A stretch of DNA of 64,000 nt from a phage. Made by a program: the position numbers and the translations under genes. The notes under the pieces are model-generated. The model made no database searches and had not been told where the DNA came from. It saw only the letters and a list, made by a program, of their open reading frames with translations. Position 1 is the first letter of the stretch; the number at the start of each line of letters is the position of its first letter. Location of the stretch: sequence record PX092659.1; one strand, written 5' to 3'. Below, piece after piece: positions 5,817 through 11,651 of this stretch.

Positions 5817-7279
5817 ATATCGCTGGCCTGTTCACCTGTTGAATTTTCAGCTTTGTCTTTCTTAGCACGTTTAGGTTGAGCCGGCTTATCCTTCTCAATA
5901 GGGATAACGAACTCAGCTTCCATTTGAGATATATCTTCCATTGCTAGGTTGGTAGTGTTATCCATTCGCAGAGTTTCCCAGTTCATTTTAGGCATAAACT
6001 TCACGCTATCAGAAGAACGAGTCTTAACGAAGTCAAACATAATAGCACCTTGACCATTATCAGCTTTTGCAGCATTAAGATTAGCAGCCATGTCTGCGGA
6101 ATCAAGAATCCCCTTTGACATACGTGTTCTACCATCCTGATCGATCTGGTAAGGAGCTACACCAGCCACGTTATGTTTCTGGCAGATAGATTTGAAAGAC
6201 GAGCTAACAACCATCTGTTCTTTCCAGTCATACATATCAATGGTTTTAGAATCTGGAAGTCGGGTTTGGTTAATATAGTCCAGTAAAGCTACTGTAACTT
6301 TATCACCATATCTAGCAACTAATTTATTTAACTCTACATCAACTGTTGTAATGGACAGTTCAGGGTCATAAACGATAATCATAGGAGTATGTAGTTCATA
6401 CCCCTCTATTAGTTTACTCTCCATATCGTAGAAATCACTCATCTTAGCCATTGTGTACTGTTTAACAAAGTTATCGAAAAGCTCTTCACCACCATTAAAC
6501 ATTCTAGCTCTAGTTCTGGCTAATCTCAACAGAGCTGCACCTTCTAGAGTATTATTACGCATTGCTAGTGCTGATACACCAGCTAACATGGCTAGATTAC
6601 GTCTAAATACTTCATGTTCTTTCATCTCAATTGAGAAGTATGGAGCAATATCTCCATTCAAATATTGCTGAACCTGTATGTTTGAACAGATAATGGATTT
6701 ACCAGTACCACGCCAACCACCAAGCAGTAACGTTTCTGTGCGAGCTAAACCAATTTGAGCGTCGAACTCATTACAAATACCAAGAGCGATTAAGTTCAGT
6801 TTGGTATCTTCTTCTCTCTGGAAAATACGCATGTTATCTGCGTTGAATACTTTTCCAGTATTCGTTACTTTCTCTTCTAATTTTAAGTGAAGGGAGGCAA
6901 CTCGGTTGAGAATTTCTCCCTGATCCAGCATTGTTAAATCTTGAAGCACGTCTGTTTCTAGAAGCTTCAGGAATAAATCCTGTGTATATTCGGCCTCTAG
7001 GACTTCAAGTGCCTGTTCCATGCTCACTTCTGGAATTTGAGTGTTAGCTAAGACGACTAGAGCTTGAGAAAGGCGGGCGTTCCTATTAGCTTCAAGCATA
7101 AGTGCGTCAATGGACGGCATTGTGTTATATTTTTTATAATAATTCTGGACGGCTTGGTAAATTGAGGAGAAAGCGTCATTAAAATGATCTTTATGCAGTT
7201 TTGAGAATGTTTCCAATGCTATTTGCTTCTGTTCGGAAGCTAGAAGCATCTTCAACACTACAGCTTGCACGTTAAACAT
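5813..7279 (-). CDS. P-loop NTPase, probable replicative helicase-like protein
   Basis: 488 aa; Walker A-like GGWRGTGKS; sits between primase and ligase genes; start ATGA-overlaps upstream HNH stop. Confidence 0.5.
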   Translation of the reverse strand: MFNVQAVVLKMLLASEQKQIALETFSKLHKDHFNDAFSSIYQAVQNYYKKYNTMPSIDALMLEANRNARLSQALVVLANTQIPEVSMEQALEVLEAEYTQDLFLKLLETDVLQDLTMLDQGEILNRVASLHLKLEEKVTNTGKVFNADNMRIFQREEDTKLNLIALGICNEFDAQIGLARTETLLLGGWRGTGKSIICSNIQVQQYLNGDIAPYFSIEMKEHEVFRRNLAMLAGVSALAMRNNTLEGAALLRLARTRARMFNGGEELFDNFVKQYTMAKMSDFYDMESKLIEGYELHTPMIIVYDPELSITTVDVELNKLVARYGDKVTVALLDYINQTRLPDSKTIDMYDWKEQMVVSSSFKSICQKHNVAGVAPYQIDQDGRTRMSKGILDSADMAANLNAAKADNGQGAIMFDFVKTRSSDSVKFMPKMNWETLRMDNTTNLAMEDISQMEAEFVIPIEKDKPAQPKRAKKDKAENSTGEQASDI

Positions 7280-7853
7280 TATCTAGCAGCTCCTCTGTAA
7301 AGTTATCCGCTATATTCTGCGGTTTAACCCTCTCTATATCTAGAGCATCTAGAGCTGCGAAATCTCCATACAGGGCTAAAAGCAGCTTATCTCTATACCA
7401 CAGAGCTTCTCCTAGAGTTTTTAGGGTTTTTCTAAATACTTTGGAGTTTTTAGATATGGTTACTTTAAATGTGTTATTTTTTGTTACTTCTATATTACGA
7501 ATGCCTAGCTTGTTACCTATAAAGCTATTAGCGGAATTTTGAGAGGAAGTAACTTCACGTAAGTTATTCCAAGTATTATCAGTTTTAATTCTATTTTTAT
7601 GATCTACCTTGTCAGGAATTTCTCCTTCCATGTATAGAAAGGCCCACCTATGCGCTCCCATAGATTTTTGTATACCTGACTCTAAGGTTATCTTTATATA
7701 AATGTAGCCCGATGAATGCATATAGCCTGCAGGTTTGTTAGCGTGCTTAGCATTGAACGCAGGATTATTTTCTCTAGGTAGCCAGTAAAAATTTCCAGTA
7801 TCAGGCTCATATCTTAATAATGTTTTAAGATACTGCTGGGTAATCTCCCCCAT
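7272..7853 (-). CDS. HNH homing endonuclease (paralog family)
   Basis: 193 aa; HNH-like region AHRWAFLYMEGEIPDKVDHKNRIKTDNTWNNL. Confidence 0.65.
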   Translation of the reverse strand: MGEITQQYLKTLLRYEPDTGNFYWLPRENNPAFNAKHANKPAGYMHSSGYIYIKITLESGIQKSMGAHRWAFLYMEGEIPDKVDHKNRIKTDNTWNNLREVTSSQNSANSFIGNKLGIRNIEVTKNNTFKVTISKNSKVFRKTLKTLGEALWYRDKLLLALYGDFAALDALDIERVKPQNIADNFTEELLDNV

Positions 7854-7912: not shown

Positions 7913-8680
7913 TTATTCAGCAGCCGCAGCTTTTGCATCCAGTTTAGCACGCTTAGCGGCACCATCATAGTCCTTAGCAACCAGACCACGACGGGACAGC
8001 ATAGATTTAACACCACGCTCAGACTTACCAGTTTTCTCAGCGATCTCAGCAACAGTCATGTTAACCAGATCCAGACCTTCTAACAGATCTTCACGAGTTT
8101 TAGCACTTGAAGTTTCCTGTACCGGCATAGCCGCAATACGACCTTCACGGAGCAGGCTCAGAGCTTTACCACGGATCTGCTTAATATTGCGACCGAAGTG
8201 AGCAGCGATAGCTTCAATAGTAGCACCAGCAACAACCTGATTAACAAAGTCAGTTTCTTCATCCGGAGTGAAGGAACGAACAGCAGCAGCTTTTTCAGTT
8301 GGTTTAACAGAAGCGGTCATTTCCAGACTCAGGATCTTACCCTGTACCTGTTTAGCACCAAACTGACCACCAGCTACAGCAGCAGCGATTTCAGCATAAG
8401 TATACTGACCAGCATGAGCGTTCAGGAAATCAACCAGTTCAGCTTCCTGCTCAGGAGTCCACGGGGATTTCTGTACTTCGTTAGCTTTCTGTACTTCGAA
8501 ACCTTCTTTACGCAGCTTAGAGCCAACAGAGCGAGCGGTAACGTCTTTGCCAGTTTCAGCAGCCAGTTCAGCAGCGATAGCCGCTACTTGTTCTTGAGAG
8601 ATTACAGCAACACCCAGAGCAGTGGCTTTTGCTTTCAGAGACTCGGTTACACCTTCTACGTTCCAGTTCAGTTTAGACAT
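7913..8680 (-). CDS. hypothetical Ala/Lys-rich protein with internal repeats (possible DNA-binding early protein)
   Basis: 255 aa; three internal repeats of the form AEIA...G...K; position next to the ligase resembles the D5-type gene of T5-like phages. Confidence 0.45.
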   Translation of the reverse strand: MSKLNWNVEGVTESLKAKATALGVAVISQEQVAAIAAELAAETGKDVTARSVGSKLRKEGFEVQKANEVQKSPWTPEQEAELVDFLNAHAGQYTYAEIAAAVAGGQFGAKQVQGKILSLEMTASVKPTEKAAAVRSFTPDEETDFVNQVVAGATIEAIAAHFGRNIKQIRGKALSLLREGRIAAMPVQETSSAKTREDLLEGLDLVNMTVAEIAEKTGKSERGVKSMLSRRGLVAKDYDGAAKRAKLDAKAAAAE

Positions 8681-9455
8681 TATTATTTTTCTCCAATAGT
8701 TCTTTAATCGACAGGATTTCTATCCCATTCGTTTCGGCTTTCTTATAAGATGAGGAAGAACGCTTCGATTCATCCTCACAGATTAGGTATTTGACGTCTT
8801 TGGTAACGGATTTCTTAACCGTATATCCTAGACCTTCTAAATAGTTTGTTGCATCCGTTCTATTTGCAAAATCTTGCAAAGATCCGGTAATACATACCGT
8901 TATTCCGTTTGGTTGGGCTACTAGACCATCAGTGATGATGACCTCAGCTTTAGCACCTTTAATACCGGTTGTGAATTTCCATGGTAATTCGATAACATCC
9001 TTGCCTTGTGGGGAATTTAGCCAGGCTTTATAATTTTCTCCAGCTTTGCCATCAGCTCTCACATCATGGAAGCTAGTGCAATTTTGGGATAATTTCTTTG
9101 CTGCAACCTCTCCAATTAGAGGGATTCCTAAAGAACCGAGAACTGAACCAAAGTCAATGTCTCCGCGAACTTTAGTATTTAATTCGCTAATTAACTTAGC
9201 GGCAACCTTGCTACCCACGGCTCTAACCAAATCTTCTTCGGTTAGGTAAAATAGTTCTGAAATCTTCGTCAGCTCCAGCTTCTCAATAGTTTTTGGGCCA
9301 AAGCCCTTTAACTTCATTTTTGTACAGAAGTTCTCAATTAACTTACTTGACTGCGCTGGACAGTTGGACTTATTCCTACAGAATAATTGTCCGTTGACAA
9401 GATCTAGCTTAGAACCACAAGAGGGACATTGTGTTGGAATTTCGATTTTCATCAA
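8673..9455 (-). CDS. ligB: NAD-dependent DNA ligase, C-terminal subunit (zinc finger / HhH / BRCT)
   Basis: 260 aa; Cys4 zinc finger CPSCGS...CRNKSNC; HhH-like and BRCT-like C-terminus (VCITGSL); complements the adenylation-domain ORF at 9655-10626. Confidence 0.75.
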   Translation of the reverse strand: MMKIEIPTQCPSCGSKLDLVNGQLFCRNKSNCPAQSSKLIENFCTKMKLKGFGPKTIEKLELTKISELFYLTEEDLVRAVGSKVAAKLISELNTKVRGDIDFGSVLGSLGIPLIGEVAAKKLSQNCTSFHDVRADGKAGENYKAWLNSPQGKDVIELPWKFTTGIKGAKAEVIITDGLVAQPNGITVCITGSLQDFANRTDATNYLEGLGYTVKKSVTKDVKYLICEDESKRSSSSYKKAETNGIEILSIKELLEKNNNV

Positions 9456-9482
9456 ATTTCTTCCTTATCAATTTATATAAAT

Positions 9483-9511
9483 ATTATAGCAAGTATTTAA
9501 GCATTTAGCAA
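9483..9511 (-). promoter_or_regulatory. sigma70-type early promoter (minus): TTGCTA-N17-TATAAT
   Basis: Reverse complement reads TTGCTA, 17-nt spacer, TATAAT; member of the repeated cassette. Confidence 0.65.
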
Positions 9512-9575
9512 CTACAATTTTAACTAACTTTGCTCACCCTCGCCATAACTTTCTATCCCTCAACTGAATGATAAT

Positions 9576-9604
9576 AGTATATACCTAAGCGGCGAAAATG
9601 TCAA
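9576..9604 (-). promoter_or_regulatory. second promoter class (minus): TTGACATTTTCGC-type
   Basis: Reverse complement reads TTGACA ttttcgccgcttaggta TATACT; shares a 13-nt identity TTGACATTTTCGC with the promoter at 39953-39981. Confidence 0.55.
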
Positions 9605-9654
9605 TAACCACTTTATAATTCCGATATGGTAGATGGGTAGCAAAGGGTTATGTA

Positions 9655-10626
9655 TTAATCATATACTCGCTCTACTATGCACGGGATTACACCACCAGCA
9701 CGAATCACTCGAATCTGGCAACCGATCTCTAGATCGAGAGAGTTAATATAATCAACGTTATTAAGAGTCGCTTTAACAATTGTAGCATCATCAATAATTA
9801 CCGGTTCGAAATAACCAACTGGAGTTACTTTACCAGAAGCCCCTACCTGCCACTCAACTTTAGTAAGAGTTGTAATCTCGCCTTCTTCATCCTCTTTAAC
9901 AGCAAATGCTCCACGAGGGAATTTATTAGTCCAGCCTTCACGGAAGAATTTGTTGTTGTCATTAATACGAACAACTTTACCGTCCGTCGGAATCCATTTA
10001 AAGAAGGAACGCACATTAACAACTGTTAAGAAGTTCTCATTCTCTAGCCAAAGCATATCTTTTAAGTATGCTTCTGTAATACCTACAGATTCAGCAGAAC
10101 ACTGGATACCATAAGCAACAAAGATTAAACCACCTTCCCCGATACGTTGTACGAAATCATCACTATCTTTGAGGTTAATAGCACCAGAGGCAAAGTTACG
10201 TTTATTTTCTACTTCTTTTGTAATTAGAACTTCACCAGTGATTTGAGTTGGTACTTTTTGGGAAATCTTTTTAGGGATATTCAGCAGTCTTACGTTGCTT
10301 GTGACATCATTCCCTAGAATACCATTACCACGAGTTAGTGCTTGAACAAATTCGCCATTAATATATAGTAGAGAAATCGCACAACCATCTAACTTGTCAG
10401 TTTCTACCTGACCTAATGGGTTAAATGGGGGTTTATCTCCACGATTATAATAAACTTTCTGTAAAGAATACATACGATACAGATGTGGAATATCGCCCTT
10501 AGGCCCGATCTCTTCTTCTAACGGAAATCTTTTAATCAGACGATCATATTCTTCGTCAGAGATTAAAGACATTCCCTGGTAATATGCTTCTTGACAGCGT
10601 TTAATAAATTCTTTTACATTGGTCAT
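9655..10626 (-). CDS. ligA: NAD-dependent DNA ligase, N-terminal adenylation/OB subunit
   Basis: 323 aa; adenylation lysine motif KLDG (ETDKLDGCAISL); separated from the C-terminal half by a 199-bp promoter-containing spacer. Confidence 0.75.
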   Translation of the reverse strand: MTNVKEFIKRCQEAYYQGMSLISDEEYDRLIKRFPLEEEIGPKGDIPHLYRMYSLQKVYYNRGDKPPFNPLGQVETDKLDGCAISLLYINGEFVQALTRGNGILGNDVTSNVRLLNIPKKISQKVPTQITGEVLITKEVENKRNFASGAINLKDSDDFVQRIGEGGLIFVAYGIQCSAESVGITEAYLKDMLWLENENFLTVVNVRSFFKWIPTDGKVVRINDNNKFFREGWTNKFPRGAFAVKEDEEGEITTLTKVEWQVGASGKVTPVGYFEPVIIDDATIVKATLNNVDYINSLDLEIGCQIRVIRAGGVIPCIVERVYD

Positions 10627-10657
10627 TTATTTATATCTCTCATTAATTTATATAAAT

Positions 10658-10686
10658 ATTATATAACAAAACTGAGTTGAAAGCAA
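10658..10686 (-). promoter_or_regulatory. sigma70-type early promoter (minus): TTGCTT-N17-TATAAT
   Basis: Reverse complement gives TTGCTT, 17 nt, TATAAT upstream of ligA. Confidence 0.65.
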
Positions 10687-10692
10687 ATACAT

Positions 10693-11004
10693 TTATTCTT
10701 TTTCCGCCAGGCGTTTAGCTTCTTTTTCTACTTCTAATAAAACCTCACTATTAGATAATATTTTAGTAAATGCCTTAAATAAATGAGATGTTGTTTCTAG
10801 AGTGTATGGCATACTGAATCCACTTTTTGTTGGAAACCATTCACCTTCTATATCTTGGAGCCAGTACCTAATTCCTAAGTATAGATTCCCCCTAAACTCA
10901 GATACAGTTAGCCTAACCTGTTGGCCATCTTCTCTTTCCCAGATAACTATGGACTGATCATCTACATGTCCAACATAATCCTGATTTACATTATCTCCCG
11001 ACAT
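10693..11004 (-). CDS. hypothetical protein
   Basis: 103-aa track ORF, co-oriented; overlaps downstream gene start. Confidence 0.5.
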   Translation of the reverse strand: MSGDNVNQDYVGHVDDQSIVIWEREDGQQVRLTVSEFRGNLYLGIRYWLQDIEGEWFPTKSGFSMPYTLETTSHLFKAFTKILSNSEVLLEVEKEAKRLAEKE

Positions 11005-11651
11005 TTTATTGCTCCCTGACTTAGGAGATATTCCTCTGCCTCCTCTGGTTGAATATTAAAAAACTCAGTAGAACCATCAAATATTGATTCTGTAAATATC
11101 TGTGTAGTACTAAAAAATCTATGAGCTTTATTTTCTAGATTATACGCTGACTCATCATAAGAGTATACTCCATATATACTCAAGTCCTCCAGATTAGAAT
11201 CTTTTTTGATCTCTAAAAGTCTTCTATCTGGACTTTTAGATGTTCCTATTTTTGTGCCTAGTTGTGGGCTATAAAATACGTATAAATAGCTAGTAGATTT
11301 ACACATAGGGCATGATCTACCAGCATTTTTAACTTTATCTACACTACTAGTCCACGTGTGTCCGTGGGTGCACTCAAATATTGCCGGACTTTGGGAATTT
11401 ATATAGGAGGATATAAGTTTTATACCTTTAGTACTTAACTGTTGATTTATGACCTCTACAGTTAGTTTAGCTTTGCCACTACAATAAGGGCAGCCACTAC
11501 CTTTCCGTATATTACTTAAATATCCCTTCCATTGATGACCTTTTGAACACTCAAATATAGCGGGTGTTCTTATATTAGCCCATTCACTCACTATATGAAA
11601 ACCTAGTGGCTCTAACTCTTTATTTATTTGCTCTTCTGTTAATTTTTTCAC
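10986..11651 (-). CDS. Zn-ribbon repeat protein with C-terminal T5orf172-like (GIY-YIG superfamily) domain
   Basis: 221 aa; repeated CxxC zinc-ribbon units (GSGCPYCSGK, GRSCPMCKS) then YVFYSPQLGTKIGTSKSPDRRLLEIK; paralog of 22845-23708. Confidence 0.55.
   Translation of the reverse strand: MKKLTEEQINKELEPLGFHIVSEWANIRTPAIFECSKGHQWKGYLSNIRKGSGCPYCSGKAKLTVEVINQQLSTKGIKLISSYINSQSPAIFECTHGHTWTSSVDKVKNAGRSCPMCKSTSYLYVFYSPQLGTKIGTSKSPDRRLLEIKKDSNLEDLSIYGVYSYDESAYNLENKAHRFFSTTQIFTESIFDGSTEFFNIQPEEAEEYLLSQGAIKCREIM

What the first reader, a model, noticed from the sequence alone, without database searches (positions are those of the whole stretch)
8673..10626. NAD-dependent DNA ligase split into two genes with promoters in the spacer
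The adenylation/OB half (323 aa, KLDG motif) and the Zn-finger/HhH/BRCT half (260 aa) are separate ORFs 199 bp apart; the spacer carries two promoters of different classes, so the C-terminal half can be transcribed independently.
Basis: partly seen in the sequence, partly recalled or inferred. Interest (0 to 1): 0.4.

Follow-up and report, generated by a model that had tools for sequence, protein, structure and literature searches.

The report
Phage T5-type two-gene DNA ligase

Summary
On the minus strand, 10626..9655 encodes 323 aa (domain Ia, adenylation and OB domains; KLDG lysine K78). 9452..8673 encodes 259 aa, or 260 from the TTG at 9455 (Cys4 zinc finger, HhH, BRCT). The gap is 199-202 nt with stops in every frame.

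The window is a Tequintavirus, 97% identical in DNA to fp01, Bf23 and T5_ev219. These genes are annotated there as NAD-dependent DNA ligase subunits A and B. A 2006 paper attributes the split ligase to the 2005 T5 genome paper. PDB 9HU3/9I5I holds both chains of the Providencia phage homologue.

All 89 related loci examined are split and none is fused, down to 38% protein identity. The gap ranges from 53 to 1359 nt and sometimes carries unrelated genes, including a GIY-YIG homing endonuclease.

Both promoter-like sites in the spacer are conserved:
- The proximal site belongs to an 18-copy promoter family in the window that matches the published T5 early-promoter description.
- The distal TTGACA-17-TATACT site keeps its position in Klebsiella and Vibrio relatives.

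Both blocks are more conserved than neutral sites. ligB overlaps D5, so these promoters probably drive a ligB-D5 unit. Transcription was not measured, and "different classes" is unproven.

Verdict: already known, low interest.

The parts
9655..10626 (-). [quoted passage not shown]
   Evidence: ORF. Pfam PF01653 and PF03120. phrog_3359 matched end to end at 3.5e-176. PDB 9HU3_A at 7.9e-104; K78 aligns with E. coli LigA K115. Annotated ligA in Bf23.
10658..10686 (-). Promoter of ligA, of the window's 18-copy T5-type family: -35 TTGCTT at 10686..10681, 17-nt spacer, -10 TATAAT at 10663..10658
   Evidence: Exact copy of the motif TATAATATTTATATAAATT. Aligned with the 17 other family members. A predicted early promoter is annotated at this place in Bf23.
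9453..9654 (-). ligA-ligB spacer: 202 nt to the ATG at 9452, or 199 nt to the TTG at 9455. Stops in all frames, 32% G+C.
   Evidence: No Rfam match, no significant fold and no terminator.
9576..9604 (-). Distal sigma-70-type promoter, TTGACA-17-TATACT, followed by a conserved box TCATTCAGTTGAGGGA (9571..9556)
   Evidence: Found. Unique in the window. Held at -151 to -155 from the ligB ATG in Klebsiella and Vibrio relatives. The block is 83% identical to Klebsiella phage P5010, against about 42% for neutral sites.
9520..9546 (-). Eight-codon mini-ORF (MARVSKVS) after the Shine-Dalgarno-like GAGGGA of the distal promoter. Probably not a gene.
   Evidence: Read from the sequence. The ATG and reading frame are not kept in Klebsiella or Vibrio relatives.
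9483..9511 (-). Proximal promoter of ligB, of the window's T5-type family: -35 TTGCTA at 9511..9506, 17-nt spacer, TG-extended -10 TATAAT at 9488..9483, then ATTTATATAAATTGATAAGGAAG
   Evidence: A promoter-like site lies 46-70 nt upstream of the ligB ATG in most relatives, down to 38% protein identity. Annotated as a predicted early promoter in Bf23.
8673..9452 (-). ligB, NAD-dependent DNA ligase subunit B (259 aa from the ATG): Cys4 zinc finger (C9, C12, C25, C31), HhH domain, BRCT domain
   Evidence: ORF. Pfam BRCT and HhH. phrog_3498 matched end to end at 1.3e-136. TIGR00575 profile positions 388-651. PDB 9HU3_B at 1.2e-79. The four cysteines are invariant in alignment A2.
7913..8680 (-). 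D5-like DNA-binding transcription regulator gene. Its ATG overlaps the end of ligB by 8 nt, so it is probably in the same transcription unit.
   Evidence: ORF. phrog_323 'transcriptional regulator, D5-like' at 1.5e-71. Annotated as transcription factor D5 in Bf23 with the same overlap.

Best explanation
This is the ligA/ligB locus of a T5-like phage (Tequintavirus, Demerecviridae). It encodes an NAD+-dependent DNA ligase of the bacterial LigA type, made as two polypeptides.

Subunit A carries the NMN-binding domain Ia, the nucleotidyltransferase domain with the adenylated lysine, and the OB fold. It should be able to adenylate itself from NAD+. Subunit B carries the zinc finger, the HhH DNA clamp and the BRCT domain, which a LigA enzyme needs to bind and seal a nick. 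The two assemble without a covalent link into one enzyme. There is no intein, intron or translational bypass.

Each gene has its own host sigma-70 promoter of the T5 type. ligB has a second, near-consensus promoter about 95 nt further upstream, and it overlaps the downstream D5 regulator gene. ligB-D5 can therefore be transcribed from the spacer in addition to any read-through from ligA.

Shown here: the sequence anatomy, the homology, conservation of the split and conservation of both promoters. Inferred: assembly of the subunits in this particular phage, activity of the promoters, and co-transcription with D5.
For: Identity of the locus:
- The region is 97% identical in DNA to fp01, Bf23 and T5_ev219. 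In total 516 phage records match, many annotated as ligase subunits A and B.
- The two proteins tile a complete LigA. They cover TIGR00575 profile positions up to 378 and 388-651, and phrog_3869 positions 9-381 and 388-654.
- The catalytic K78, the domain Ia motif and the Cys4 finger are all present.

Prior knowledge:
- PDB entries 9HU3 and 9I5I hold both chains of a homologue that is 100% identical to Providencia phage PR1/PSTCR5.
[quoted passage not shown] 2005 (PMC1684257).
- The T5 ligA/ligB accession numbers are listed in PMC3632103.
- An Ia-NTase-OB fragment of another LigA-type enzyme adenylates itself as efficiently as the full-length protein (PMC1684257).

Conservation and selection:
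- 89 of 89 loci are split, with a gap of 53-1359 nt.
- Compared with Klebsiella phage P5010, protein identity is 71% while third codon positions are only 39-44% identical. Both genes are therefore under purifying selection.

Promoters:
- The proximal promoter belongs to an 18-copy family, against 0.17 copies expected by chance.
- Both promoter blocks are conserved above neutral sites.
- T5 genes of all temporal classes are transcribed by host sigma-70 RNA polymerase (PMC7472727).
Against: - No transcription data were available for this locus. Promoter activity and start sites are predictions.
- The simple promoter scan is not enriched over shuffled sequence in this AT-rich region.
- No paper describing the 9HU3 structure or the activity of the reconstituted T5-type enzyme was found in the library. 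The stoichiometry and the need for both subunits rest on the PDB deposit and on general knowledge of LigA.
- The residue aligned with the E. coli motif IV lysine K290 is an arginine here (R220) and in 9HU3_A. The consequence is unknown.
- Each half scores below the NCBIfam LigA equivalog cut-off.
Confidence: 0.9

Rival explanations
1. The gene was originally split by a mobile element, such as a free-standing homing endonuclease gene or a small cargo gene with its own promoter, which landed in the OB / zinc-finger linker. The present spacer is what remains. This concerns the origin of the split and is compatible with the best explanation.
For: - The gap is a recurrent landing site. It holds a GIY-YIG endonuclease gene in Salmonella phage SP3 (L034 1684..2340, Pfam 1.1e-5).
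- It holds a DprA-like gene in Vibrio phage Athena, a radical SAM gene in L043 and a 64-aa ORF in phage smaug.
- The distal promoter with its Shine-Dalgarno-like box looks like a gene start that has lost its gene.
- Two more endonuclease genes flank the locus in this window.
- From my own knowledge, there is a precedent: mobE splits nrdA in phage Aeh1.
Against: - The SP3 endonuclease occurs in only 3 records, so it is a recent arrival and not the ancestral event.
- The most divergent relatives have short gaps of 53-118 nt with one promoter and no remnant of a gene.
- No fused close relative exists to show the state before the split. The nearest unsplit phage ligases are about 28% identical.
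Confidence: 0.3
2. The two ORFs are rejoined into one protein or one mRNA, by a split intein, a self-splicing intron or translational bypassing.
For: Phage genes interrupted in these ways are known (my own knowledge). The two halves are adjacent, in order and on the same strand.
Against: - Subunit A ends at the end of the OB fold and subunit B starts at the zinc finger. Neither has extra residues that could form intein halves.
- The spacer has no Rfam match, including intron families, and no significant fold.
- The gap varies from 53 to 1359 nt and can hold whole genes.
- ligB has its own promoter, Shine-Dalgarno sequence and ATG.
- The homologue was deposited in the PDB as two separate chains.
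Confidence: 0.02
3. The split is a sequencing or assembly error, or the ORFs are fragments of a decaying ligase pseudogene.
For: None beyond the bare fact that the gene is interrupted.
Against: - The same split is found in 89 of 89 independent loci and more than 900 phage records.
- Selection is purifying: 71% amino-acid identity against about 40% identity at third codon positions.
- The catalytic and zinc-binding residues are intact.
- A homologue has a solved structure.
Confidence: 0.01
4. The spacer promoters exist mainly to express D5, with ligB along for the ride, at a level or time different from ligA. Subunit B might then be made in excess, or have a role of its own as a DNA-binding or BRCT adaptor protein.
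For: - ligB and D5 overlap by 8 nt here and D5 follows ligB in every annotated relative examined.
- The tandem promoters are conserved with ligB-D5, while the sequence upstream of them varies freely.
- No terminator lies between ligB and D5.
Against: - There are no expression data.
- The divergent environmental relatives manage with one promoter. Whether they keep the D5 linkage was not examined.
- No phage was seen with ligB but without ligA among the loci examined.
Confidence: 0.35

Closest known systems
Bacteriophage T5 ligA/ligB (NAD-dependent DNA ligase subunits A and B; AAU05253 and AAU05254), and the same genes in Bf23, fp01 and other Tequintavirus and Epseptimavirus phages
   Same: - Same genes, order and strand, with 95-99% protein identity.
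- Same 202-nt spacer with both promoters, and the same overlap with D5.
- L015, a 121,750-bp contig that I take to be T5 itself from its length, has the identical layout.
   Different: Only point substitutions within the locus. This window also has an HNH endonuclease gene after D5 and another endonuclease gene upstream of the PC4-like gene. Bf23 lacks both.
Providencia phage PR1/PSTCR5 two-chain ligase, PDB 9HU3 and 9I5I
   Same: Both chains are homologous over their full length (E = 7.9e-104 and 1.2e-79). The split point is the same, and the arginine at the position of E. coli K290 is shared.
   Different: Identity is roughly 60-65%, estimated by eye from the alignments. Subunit B of the Providencia phage is about 11 residues shorter before the BRCT domain. 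No publication for these entries was found in the library.
Single-chain bacterial LigA (E. coli LigA, PDB 2OWO; TIGR00575)
   Same: Same domain order: Ia, NTase, OB, zinc finger, HhH, BRCT. The KxDG lysine, the domain Ia SDxEYD motif and the Cys4 finger are all present.
   Different: - It is made as two polypeptides, cut between positions corresponding to about 390 and 402 of E. coli LigA.
- The nucleotidyltransferase domain is shorter (323 aa against about 400).
- Identity is only about 25-30%, and both halves fall below the NCBIfam equivalog cut-off.
Genes-in-pieces in phages caused by free-standing homing endonucleases (Aeh1 nrdA split by mobE; T4 topoisomerase genes 39 and 60). Recalled from my own knowledge, not checked here.
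   Same: An essential enzyme is encoded as two adjacent genes whose products reassemble. Mobile endonuclease genes are found in and around the gap.
   Different: In this window the gap holds no endonuclease gene. The split is ancient and fixed across the whole phage family, not sporadic.

Membership tests
NAD+-dependent DNA ligase (LigA type) | Nucleotidyltransferase motif I, KxDG, with the adenylated lysine | tested here: met
   K78-L-D-G aligns with E. coli LigA K115-L-D-G. Pfam PF01653 at 2.2e-23.
NAD+-dependent DNA ligase (LigA type) | N-terminal domain Ia with the NMN-binding motif (YY ... SDxEYDxL), which distinguishes NAD+-dependent from ATP-dependent ligases | tested here: met
   Residues 15-30, YYQGMSLISDEEYDRL, align with E. 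coli 29-42 and T. filiformis 23-52, though the local scores are weak. The assignment of functional residues comes from my own knowledge of LigA.
NAD+-dependent DNA ligase (LigA type) | Motif IV (DGxVxK) and motif V lysines | tested here: inconclusive
   D215-G216 are present, and K243 aligns with the position I count as E. coli K314. The residue aligned with E. coli K290 is R220, as in 9HU3_A. The effect is unknown.
NAD+-dependent DNA ligase (LigA type) | OB-fold domain after the nucleotidyltransferase domain | tested here: met
   Pfam PF03120 at 3.8e-22, residues 252-321.
NAD+-dependent DNA ligase (LigA type) | Cys4 zinc finger, HhH domain and BRCT domain | tested here: met
   C9, C12, C25 and C31 are invariant and align with the E. 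coli zinc finger. BRCT at 1.6e-8. The HhH matches are below the Pfam cut-off, but the region aligns with TIGR00575 positions 388-651.
NAD+-dependent DNA ligase (LigA type) | All domains in one polypeptide, scoring above the NCBIfam equivalog cut-off | tested here: not met
   There are two ORFs. The scores are 174 and 107 bits against a cut-off of 444. This is the feature that makes it the split variant.
NAD+-dependent DNA ligase (LigA type) | NAD+-dependent nick sealing | not testable with these tools
   This needs enzyme assays.
T5-type two-subunit ligase (ligA/ligB of Demerecviridae; phrog_3359 plus phrog_3498) | Full-length match of each ORF to the family of the corresponding half | tested here: met
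   phrog_3359 covers residues 1-323 of 323 at 3.5e-176. phrog_3498 covers residues 1-258 of 259 at 1.3e-136.
T5-type two-subunit ligase (ligA/ligB of Demerecviridae; phrog_3359 plus phrog_3498) | Gene order ligA, gap, ligB on one strand, split at the OB / zinc-finger boundary | tested here: met
   The same layout is found in 89 of 89 loci. D5 follows ligB in the annotated relatives examined.
T5-type two-subunit ligase (ligA/ligB of Demerecviridae; phrog_3359 plus phrog_3498) | The two subunits form one enzyme | not testable with these tools
   The only support is that both chains of the Providencia phage homologue sit in the same PDB entries.
Window's 18-copy sigma-70 promoter family, which matches the published T5 early-promoter description | A-rich upstream element, TTGCTx -35, 17-nt spacer, TATAAT -10, then an AT-rich discriminator and ATAAATTGA leader | tested here: met
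   The proximal ligB promoter and the ligA promoter are exact copies of the 19-nt core. There are 18 copies in the window against 0.17 expected. The ATATT discriminator of T5 early promoters is described in PMC7472727. The distal promoter does not share the core.
Split intein, group I intron or translational bypass | Extra intein residues at the junction, a structured intron RNA, or a fixed-length untranslated gap without its own start signals | tested here: not met
   No extra residues at the junction. No Rfam match and no significant fold. The gap varies from 53 to 1359 nt and has its own promoter, Shine-Dalgarno sequence and ATG.

The most novel reading that the evidence does not exclude
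The distal promoter, with its conserved Shine-Dalgarno-like box, sits at a fixed distance of about 152 nt before ligB. It is kept from enterobacterial to Vibrio members of the family, while everything upstream of it is free to change. It might therefore be a dedicated control element that sets the amount or timing of ligB-D5 expression separately from ligA. If so, the ligase may have stayed split because the break lets the phage place a regulated promoter for the D5 regulator inside what was once one gene. Subunit B might then be made in excess or have a second role.
Probability: 0.15. Interest if true: 0.35.

Novelty: already known. Interest (0 to 1): 0.12.

Why it matters
The split ligase is a neat natural example of a multi-domain repair enzyme that works in pieces. 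However, a 2006 paper already attributes it to the 2005 T5 genome paper, it is annotated in hundreds of phage genomes, and a homologue now has a solved two-chain structure.

What this analysis adds is modest:
- The split is universal in the lineage, in 89 of 89 loci down to 38% protein identity.
- The gap behaves like an ordinary intergenic region that collects cargo genes.
- Both promoters ahead of ligB are under selection and probably serve a ligB-D5 unit.

These points could help anyone mapping T5 early transcription, but they do not open a new question.

Tried and rejected
Literature:
- Searches for the paper behind PDB 9HU3/9I5I found nothing relevant. The hits for "9HU3" were strings that merely contain those characters.
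- No T5 start-site or RNA-seq data covering this locus were found. Figure S5 of PMC7472727, which aligns early and late promoters, is held only as an image. The distal promoter could therefore not be compared with known late promoters.

RNA and termination:
- Rfam gave no match in 8400..10900 at E up to 1.
- Folding the spacer gave z = -0.92, which is not significant.
- RNAalifold on eight diverse leaders predicted no base pairs. A structured RNA, sRNA or riboswitch was rejected.
- The terminator scan found none between ligA and ligB, or between ligB and D5.

Spacer content:
- The mini-ORF MARVSKVS is not conserved and was rejected as a gene.
- Most cargo ORFs in the gaps of relatives have no Pfam or PHROG function. 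No ancestral endonuclease remnant could be shown.
- Split intein, intron, translational bypass, frameshift and pseudogene explanations were all rejected (see the rival explanations).

Searches deliberately not run: the large protein-database searches and structure prediction. A close homologue already has a solved structure, so the results could not have changed the verdict.
Full report
**1. What is in the sequence**

On the minus strand, 10626..9655 is an ORF of 323 aa. 9455..8673 is an ORF of 260 aa that starts at a TTG. The 199 nt between them have stop codons in all three frames and 32% G+C, against 39% for the window.

Pfam places the NAD-dependent ligase adenylation domain (2.2e-23) and the ligase OB domain (3.8e-22) in the first ORF. 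It places BRCT (1.6e-8) and weak HhH matches in the second.

The second codon of the downstream ORF is an ATG at 9452, 7 nt after AAGGAAG. Relatives are annotated from that ATG, and the solved homologue starts there too. I therefore take ligB as 9452..8673 (259 aa) and the gap as 202 nt.

**2. What it is**

The 2.5-kb region is 97% identical to Escherichia phages fp01 and Bf23, to T5_ev219 and to many Salmonella T5-like phages. In total 516 phage records match. [quoted passage not shown] The window is therefore part of a Tequintavirus genome (family Demerecviridae).

The two proteins tile a whole LigA:
- In the NCBIfam LigA model TIGR00575 (652 positions), subunit A reaches position 378 and subunit B covers 388-651.
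- In the PHROG family of single-chain phage ligases, they cover positions 9-381 and 388-654 of 656.
- Against E. coli LigA (PDB 2OWO), subunit A ends at about residue 390 and subunit B begins at about residue 402. This is the boundary between the OB fold and the zinc finger.

The expected residues are present. K78 in KLDG aligns with the adenylated K115. The N-terminus has the domain Ia motif YY...SDEEYDRL. The four zinc-finger cysteines (C9, C12, C25, C31) are invariant among five divergent subunit B sequences.

One oddity is that the residue aligned with E. coli K290 in motif IV is an arginine. The solved homologue shares this.

Each half has its own PHROG family, matched from end to end (phrog_3359 at 3.5e-176 and phrog_3498 at 1.3e-136).

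**3. It is already known**

Three lines of evidence show this:
[quoted passage not shown] (PMC1684257).
- A 2013 paper lists T5 ligA (AAU05253) and ligB (AAU05254) (PMC3632103).
- The Protein Data Bank holds two entries, 9HU3 and 9I5I, each with a chain named "DNA ligase (NAD(+))" (339 aa) and a chain named "DNA ligase subunit B" (248 aa). These match the two window proteins at 7.9e-104 and 1.2e-79. Chain B is 100% identical to the subunit B gene of Providencia phages PR1 and PSTCR5, which are T5-like.

I found no paper on those entries in the library.

**4. How far the split goes**

A tblastn search with the two proteins joined end to end found the two-piece arrangement in several groups:
- Tequintavirus and Epseptimavirus phages, at 95-99% protein identity.
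- Klebsiella phages, at about 71%.
- Vibrio members of the family, at 47-51%.

The nearest single-piece phage ligases are only about 28% identical.

A scan of IMG/VR with an alignment of five subunit B sequences returned 80 loci, down to 38% identity. None is fused, and the gap runs from 53 to 1359 nt.

Against Klebsiella phage P5010, the proteins are 71% identical while third codon positions are only 39-44% identical. Both genes are therefore under purifying selection. This excludes a sequencing error or a decaying pseudogene.

**5. The gap behaves like an intergenic region that collects cargo**

The gap holds different genes in different relatives:
- Vibrio phage Athena: two ORFs, one of them DprA-like (phrog_768, 6.4e-49).
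- Phage PG07 and phage D23: two small ORFs each.
- An environmental contig, L043: a radical SAM gene.
- Salmonella phage smaug: a 64-aa ORF.
- Salmonella phage SP3 and one other phage: a 218-aa GIY-YIG homing endonuclease gene that overlaps the end of ligA.

The endonuclease occurs in only 3 records, so it is a recent arrival. It shows that mobile elements can use this site. It does not show that one caused the original split.

**6. The promoters**

The consensus scan finds two sites on the coding strand within the spacer: TTGACA-17-TATACT at 9604..9576, and TTGCTA-17-TATAAT (with TG) at 9511..9483. It finds no terminator. The number of sites in the region is no higher than in shuffled sequence, so other evidence is needed.

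*Proximal promoter.* Its -10 hexamer and the following 13 nt (TATAATATTTATATAAATT) recur 18 times in the window with up to 3 mismatches, against 0.17 expected. All copies lie on the minus strand below 21 kb and on the plus strand above 33 kb. When aligned, the copies share five features:
- an A-rich upstream stretch;
- a TTGCTx -35 element;
- a 17-nt spacer;
- a TATAAT -10 element;
- an ATAAATTGAGAGG-like leader, followed in most copies by an ATG.

This matches the published description of T5 early promoters, which have an UP element, -35 and -10 elements and an ATATT discriminator, and are read by host sigma-70 polymerase (PMC7472727). ligA has an exact copy of the same 19-nt core at 10663..10645. 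The Bf23 record annotates a predicted early promoter upstream of each of the two genes. A promoter-like site 46-70 nt before the ligB ATG was found in most lineages examined, including most of the short-gap environmental ones.

*Distal promoter.* This promoter is unique in the window but conserved in relatives. A TTGAC(A/G)-17-TATA(A/C)T site sits 151-155 nt before the ligB ATG in Klebsiella phage P5010 and in the Vibrio phages Athena, PG07 and D23, and in L038-L040.

Identity of each spacer segment between the window and Klebsiella phage P5010:

| Segment | Identity |
|---|---|
| Distal promoter block | 83% |
| Proximal promoter block | 76% |
| First 38 nt of the spacer | 42% |

The distal site is followed by a conserved TCA...TTGAGGGA box that looks like the usual leader plus Shine-Dalgarno sequence. 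The 8-codon ORF after it is not conserved. The leader has no conserved RNA structure and no Rfam match. The environmental relatives with gaps of 53-118 nt have only one promoter.

That they belong to different classes is plausible only in the sense that one belongs to the 18-copy family and the other does not. I could not assign a temporal class.

**7. Transcription unit**

The ATG of the D5-like regulator gene (8680..7913; phrog_323 at 1.5e-71) lies 8 nt inside the end of ligB. No terminator is predicted, and D5 follows ligB in the annotated relatives examined. The spacer promoters therefore most likely drive ligB-D5. Because no terminator follows ligA, read-through from the ligA promoter is also likely. 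All of this is inference, as no transcript data were found.

**8. Mechanism**

Subunit A should react with NAD+ to form the enzyme-adenylate. A comparable Ia-NTase-OB fragment of Haloferax LigN does so as efficiently as the full-length enzyme (PMC1684257). From established work on E. coli LigA (my own knowledge), the zinc finger, HhH and BRCT domains are needed for DNA binding and nick sealing. Subunit B therefore supplies the DNA clamp.

There are no extra residues at the junction, so association must use the native OB / zinc-finger interface, the DNA, or both. The joint deposit of both chains in the PDB is consistent with a complex.

A split intein, an intron or translational bypassing is excluded by four observations: no extra sequence at the junction, no RNA structure in the spacer, a gap of variable length, and ligB having its own start signals.

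**9. Verdict**

The finding is accurate but describes a feature of T5-like phages that is already documented and annotated. The conservation of the tandem promoters and the ligB-D5 linkage are small additions. Interest is low.

Noticed in passing
window 7272..7853 (-): An HNH endonuclease gene (Pfam HNH_3 5.5e-14; phrog_99 5.4e-48) lies directly after D5. In Bf23, D5 is followed directly by the D6 helicase gene, so this looks like a sporadic homing-endonuclease insertion.
   Followed up: partly
window 10986..11651 (-): A 221-aa ORF has treble-clef zinc-finger repeats (DUF4379, CapR) and a T5orf172/MUG113 domain, and matches phrog_681 'endonuclease'. It overlaps the start of the PC4-like gene (10693..11004) by 19 nt. 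It is present in fp01 and SP01 but not at this place in Bf23.
   Followed up: partly
window, 18 sites from 9470 to 58480: A family of 18 near-identical promoters (A-tract, TTGCTx, 17 nt, TATAAT, ATAAATTGAGAGG leader). All lie on the minus strand below 21 kb and on the plus strand above 33 kb. This marks two divergent gene blocks, with no copy between about 21 and 33 kb.
   Followed up: partly
L034 1684..2340 (Salmonella phage SP3, MG387042.1 64007..64663): A GIY-YIG homing endonuclease gene sits in the ligA-ligB gap and overlaps the end of ligA. It is found in only 3 phage records. The last 70 or so residues of SP3 subunit A differ from the window more than the rest of the protein does, which would fit co-conversion around a homing site.
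   Followed up: partly
window 9520..9546 (-) and 9556..9571 (-): After the distal promoter comes a strongly conserved box, TCATTCAGTTGAGGGA, followed by an 8-codon ORF (MARVSKVS). The box is kept in Klebsiella phages and, with changes, in Vibrio phages; the ORF is not. It may be the remains of a lost gene start. Why it is so well conserved is not explained.
   Followed up: partly
window 9967..9969 (-), codon for R220 of subunit A: The residue aligned with the E. coli LigA motif IV lysine K290 is an arginine, both here and in the solved Providencia phage homologue.
   Followed up: no
OR847187.1 (hits H1 and H31): The best database match to this region is a 4.8-kb unannotated record named 'Listeria phage LM 4-11-1', at 97% DNA and 99% protein identity. 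A T5-like sequence under that name suggests a mislabelled or mixed-sample contig.
   Followed up: no
L006 1801..2361, L043 564..1568: The ligA-ligB gap carries different cargo in distant relatives: a DprA-like gene in Vibrio phage Athena and a radical SAM gene in an environmental contig.
   Followed up: partly
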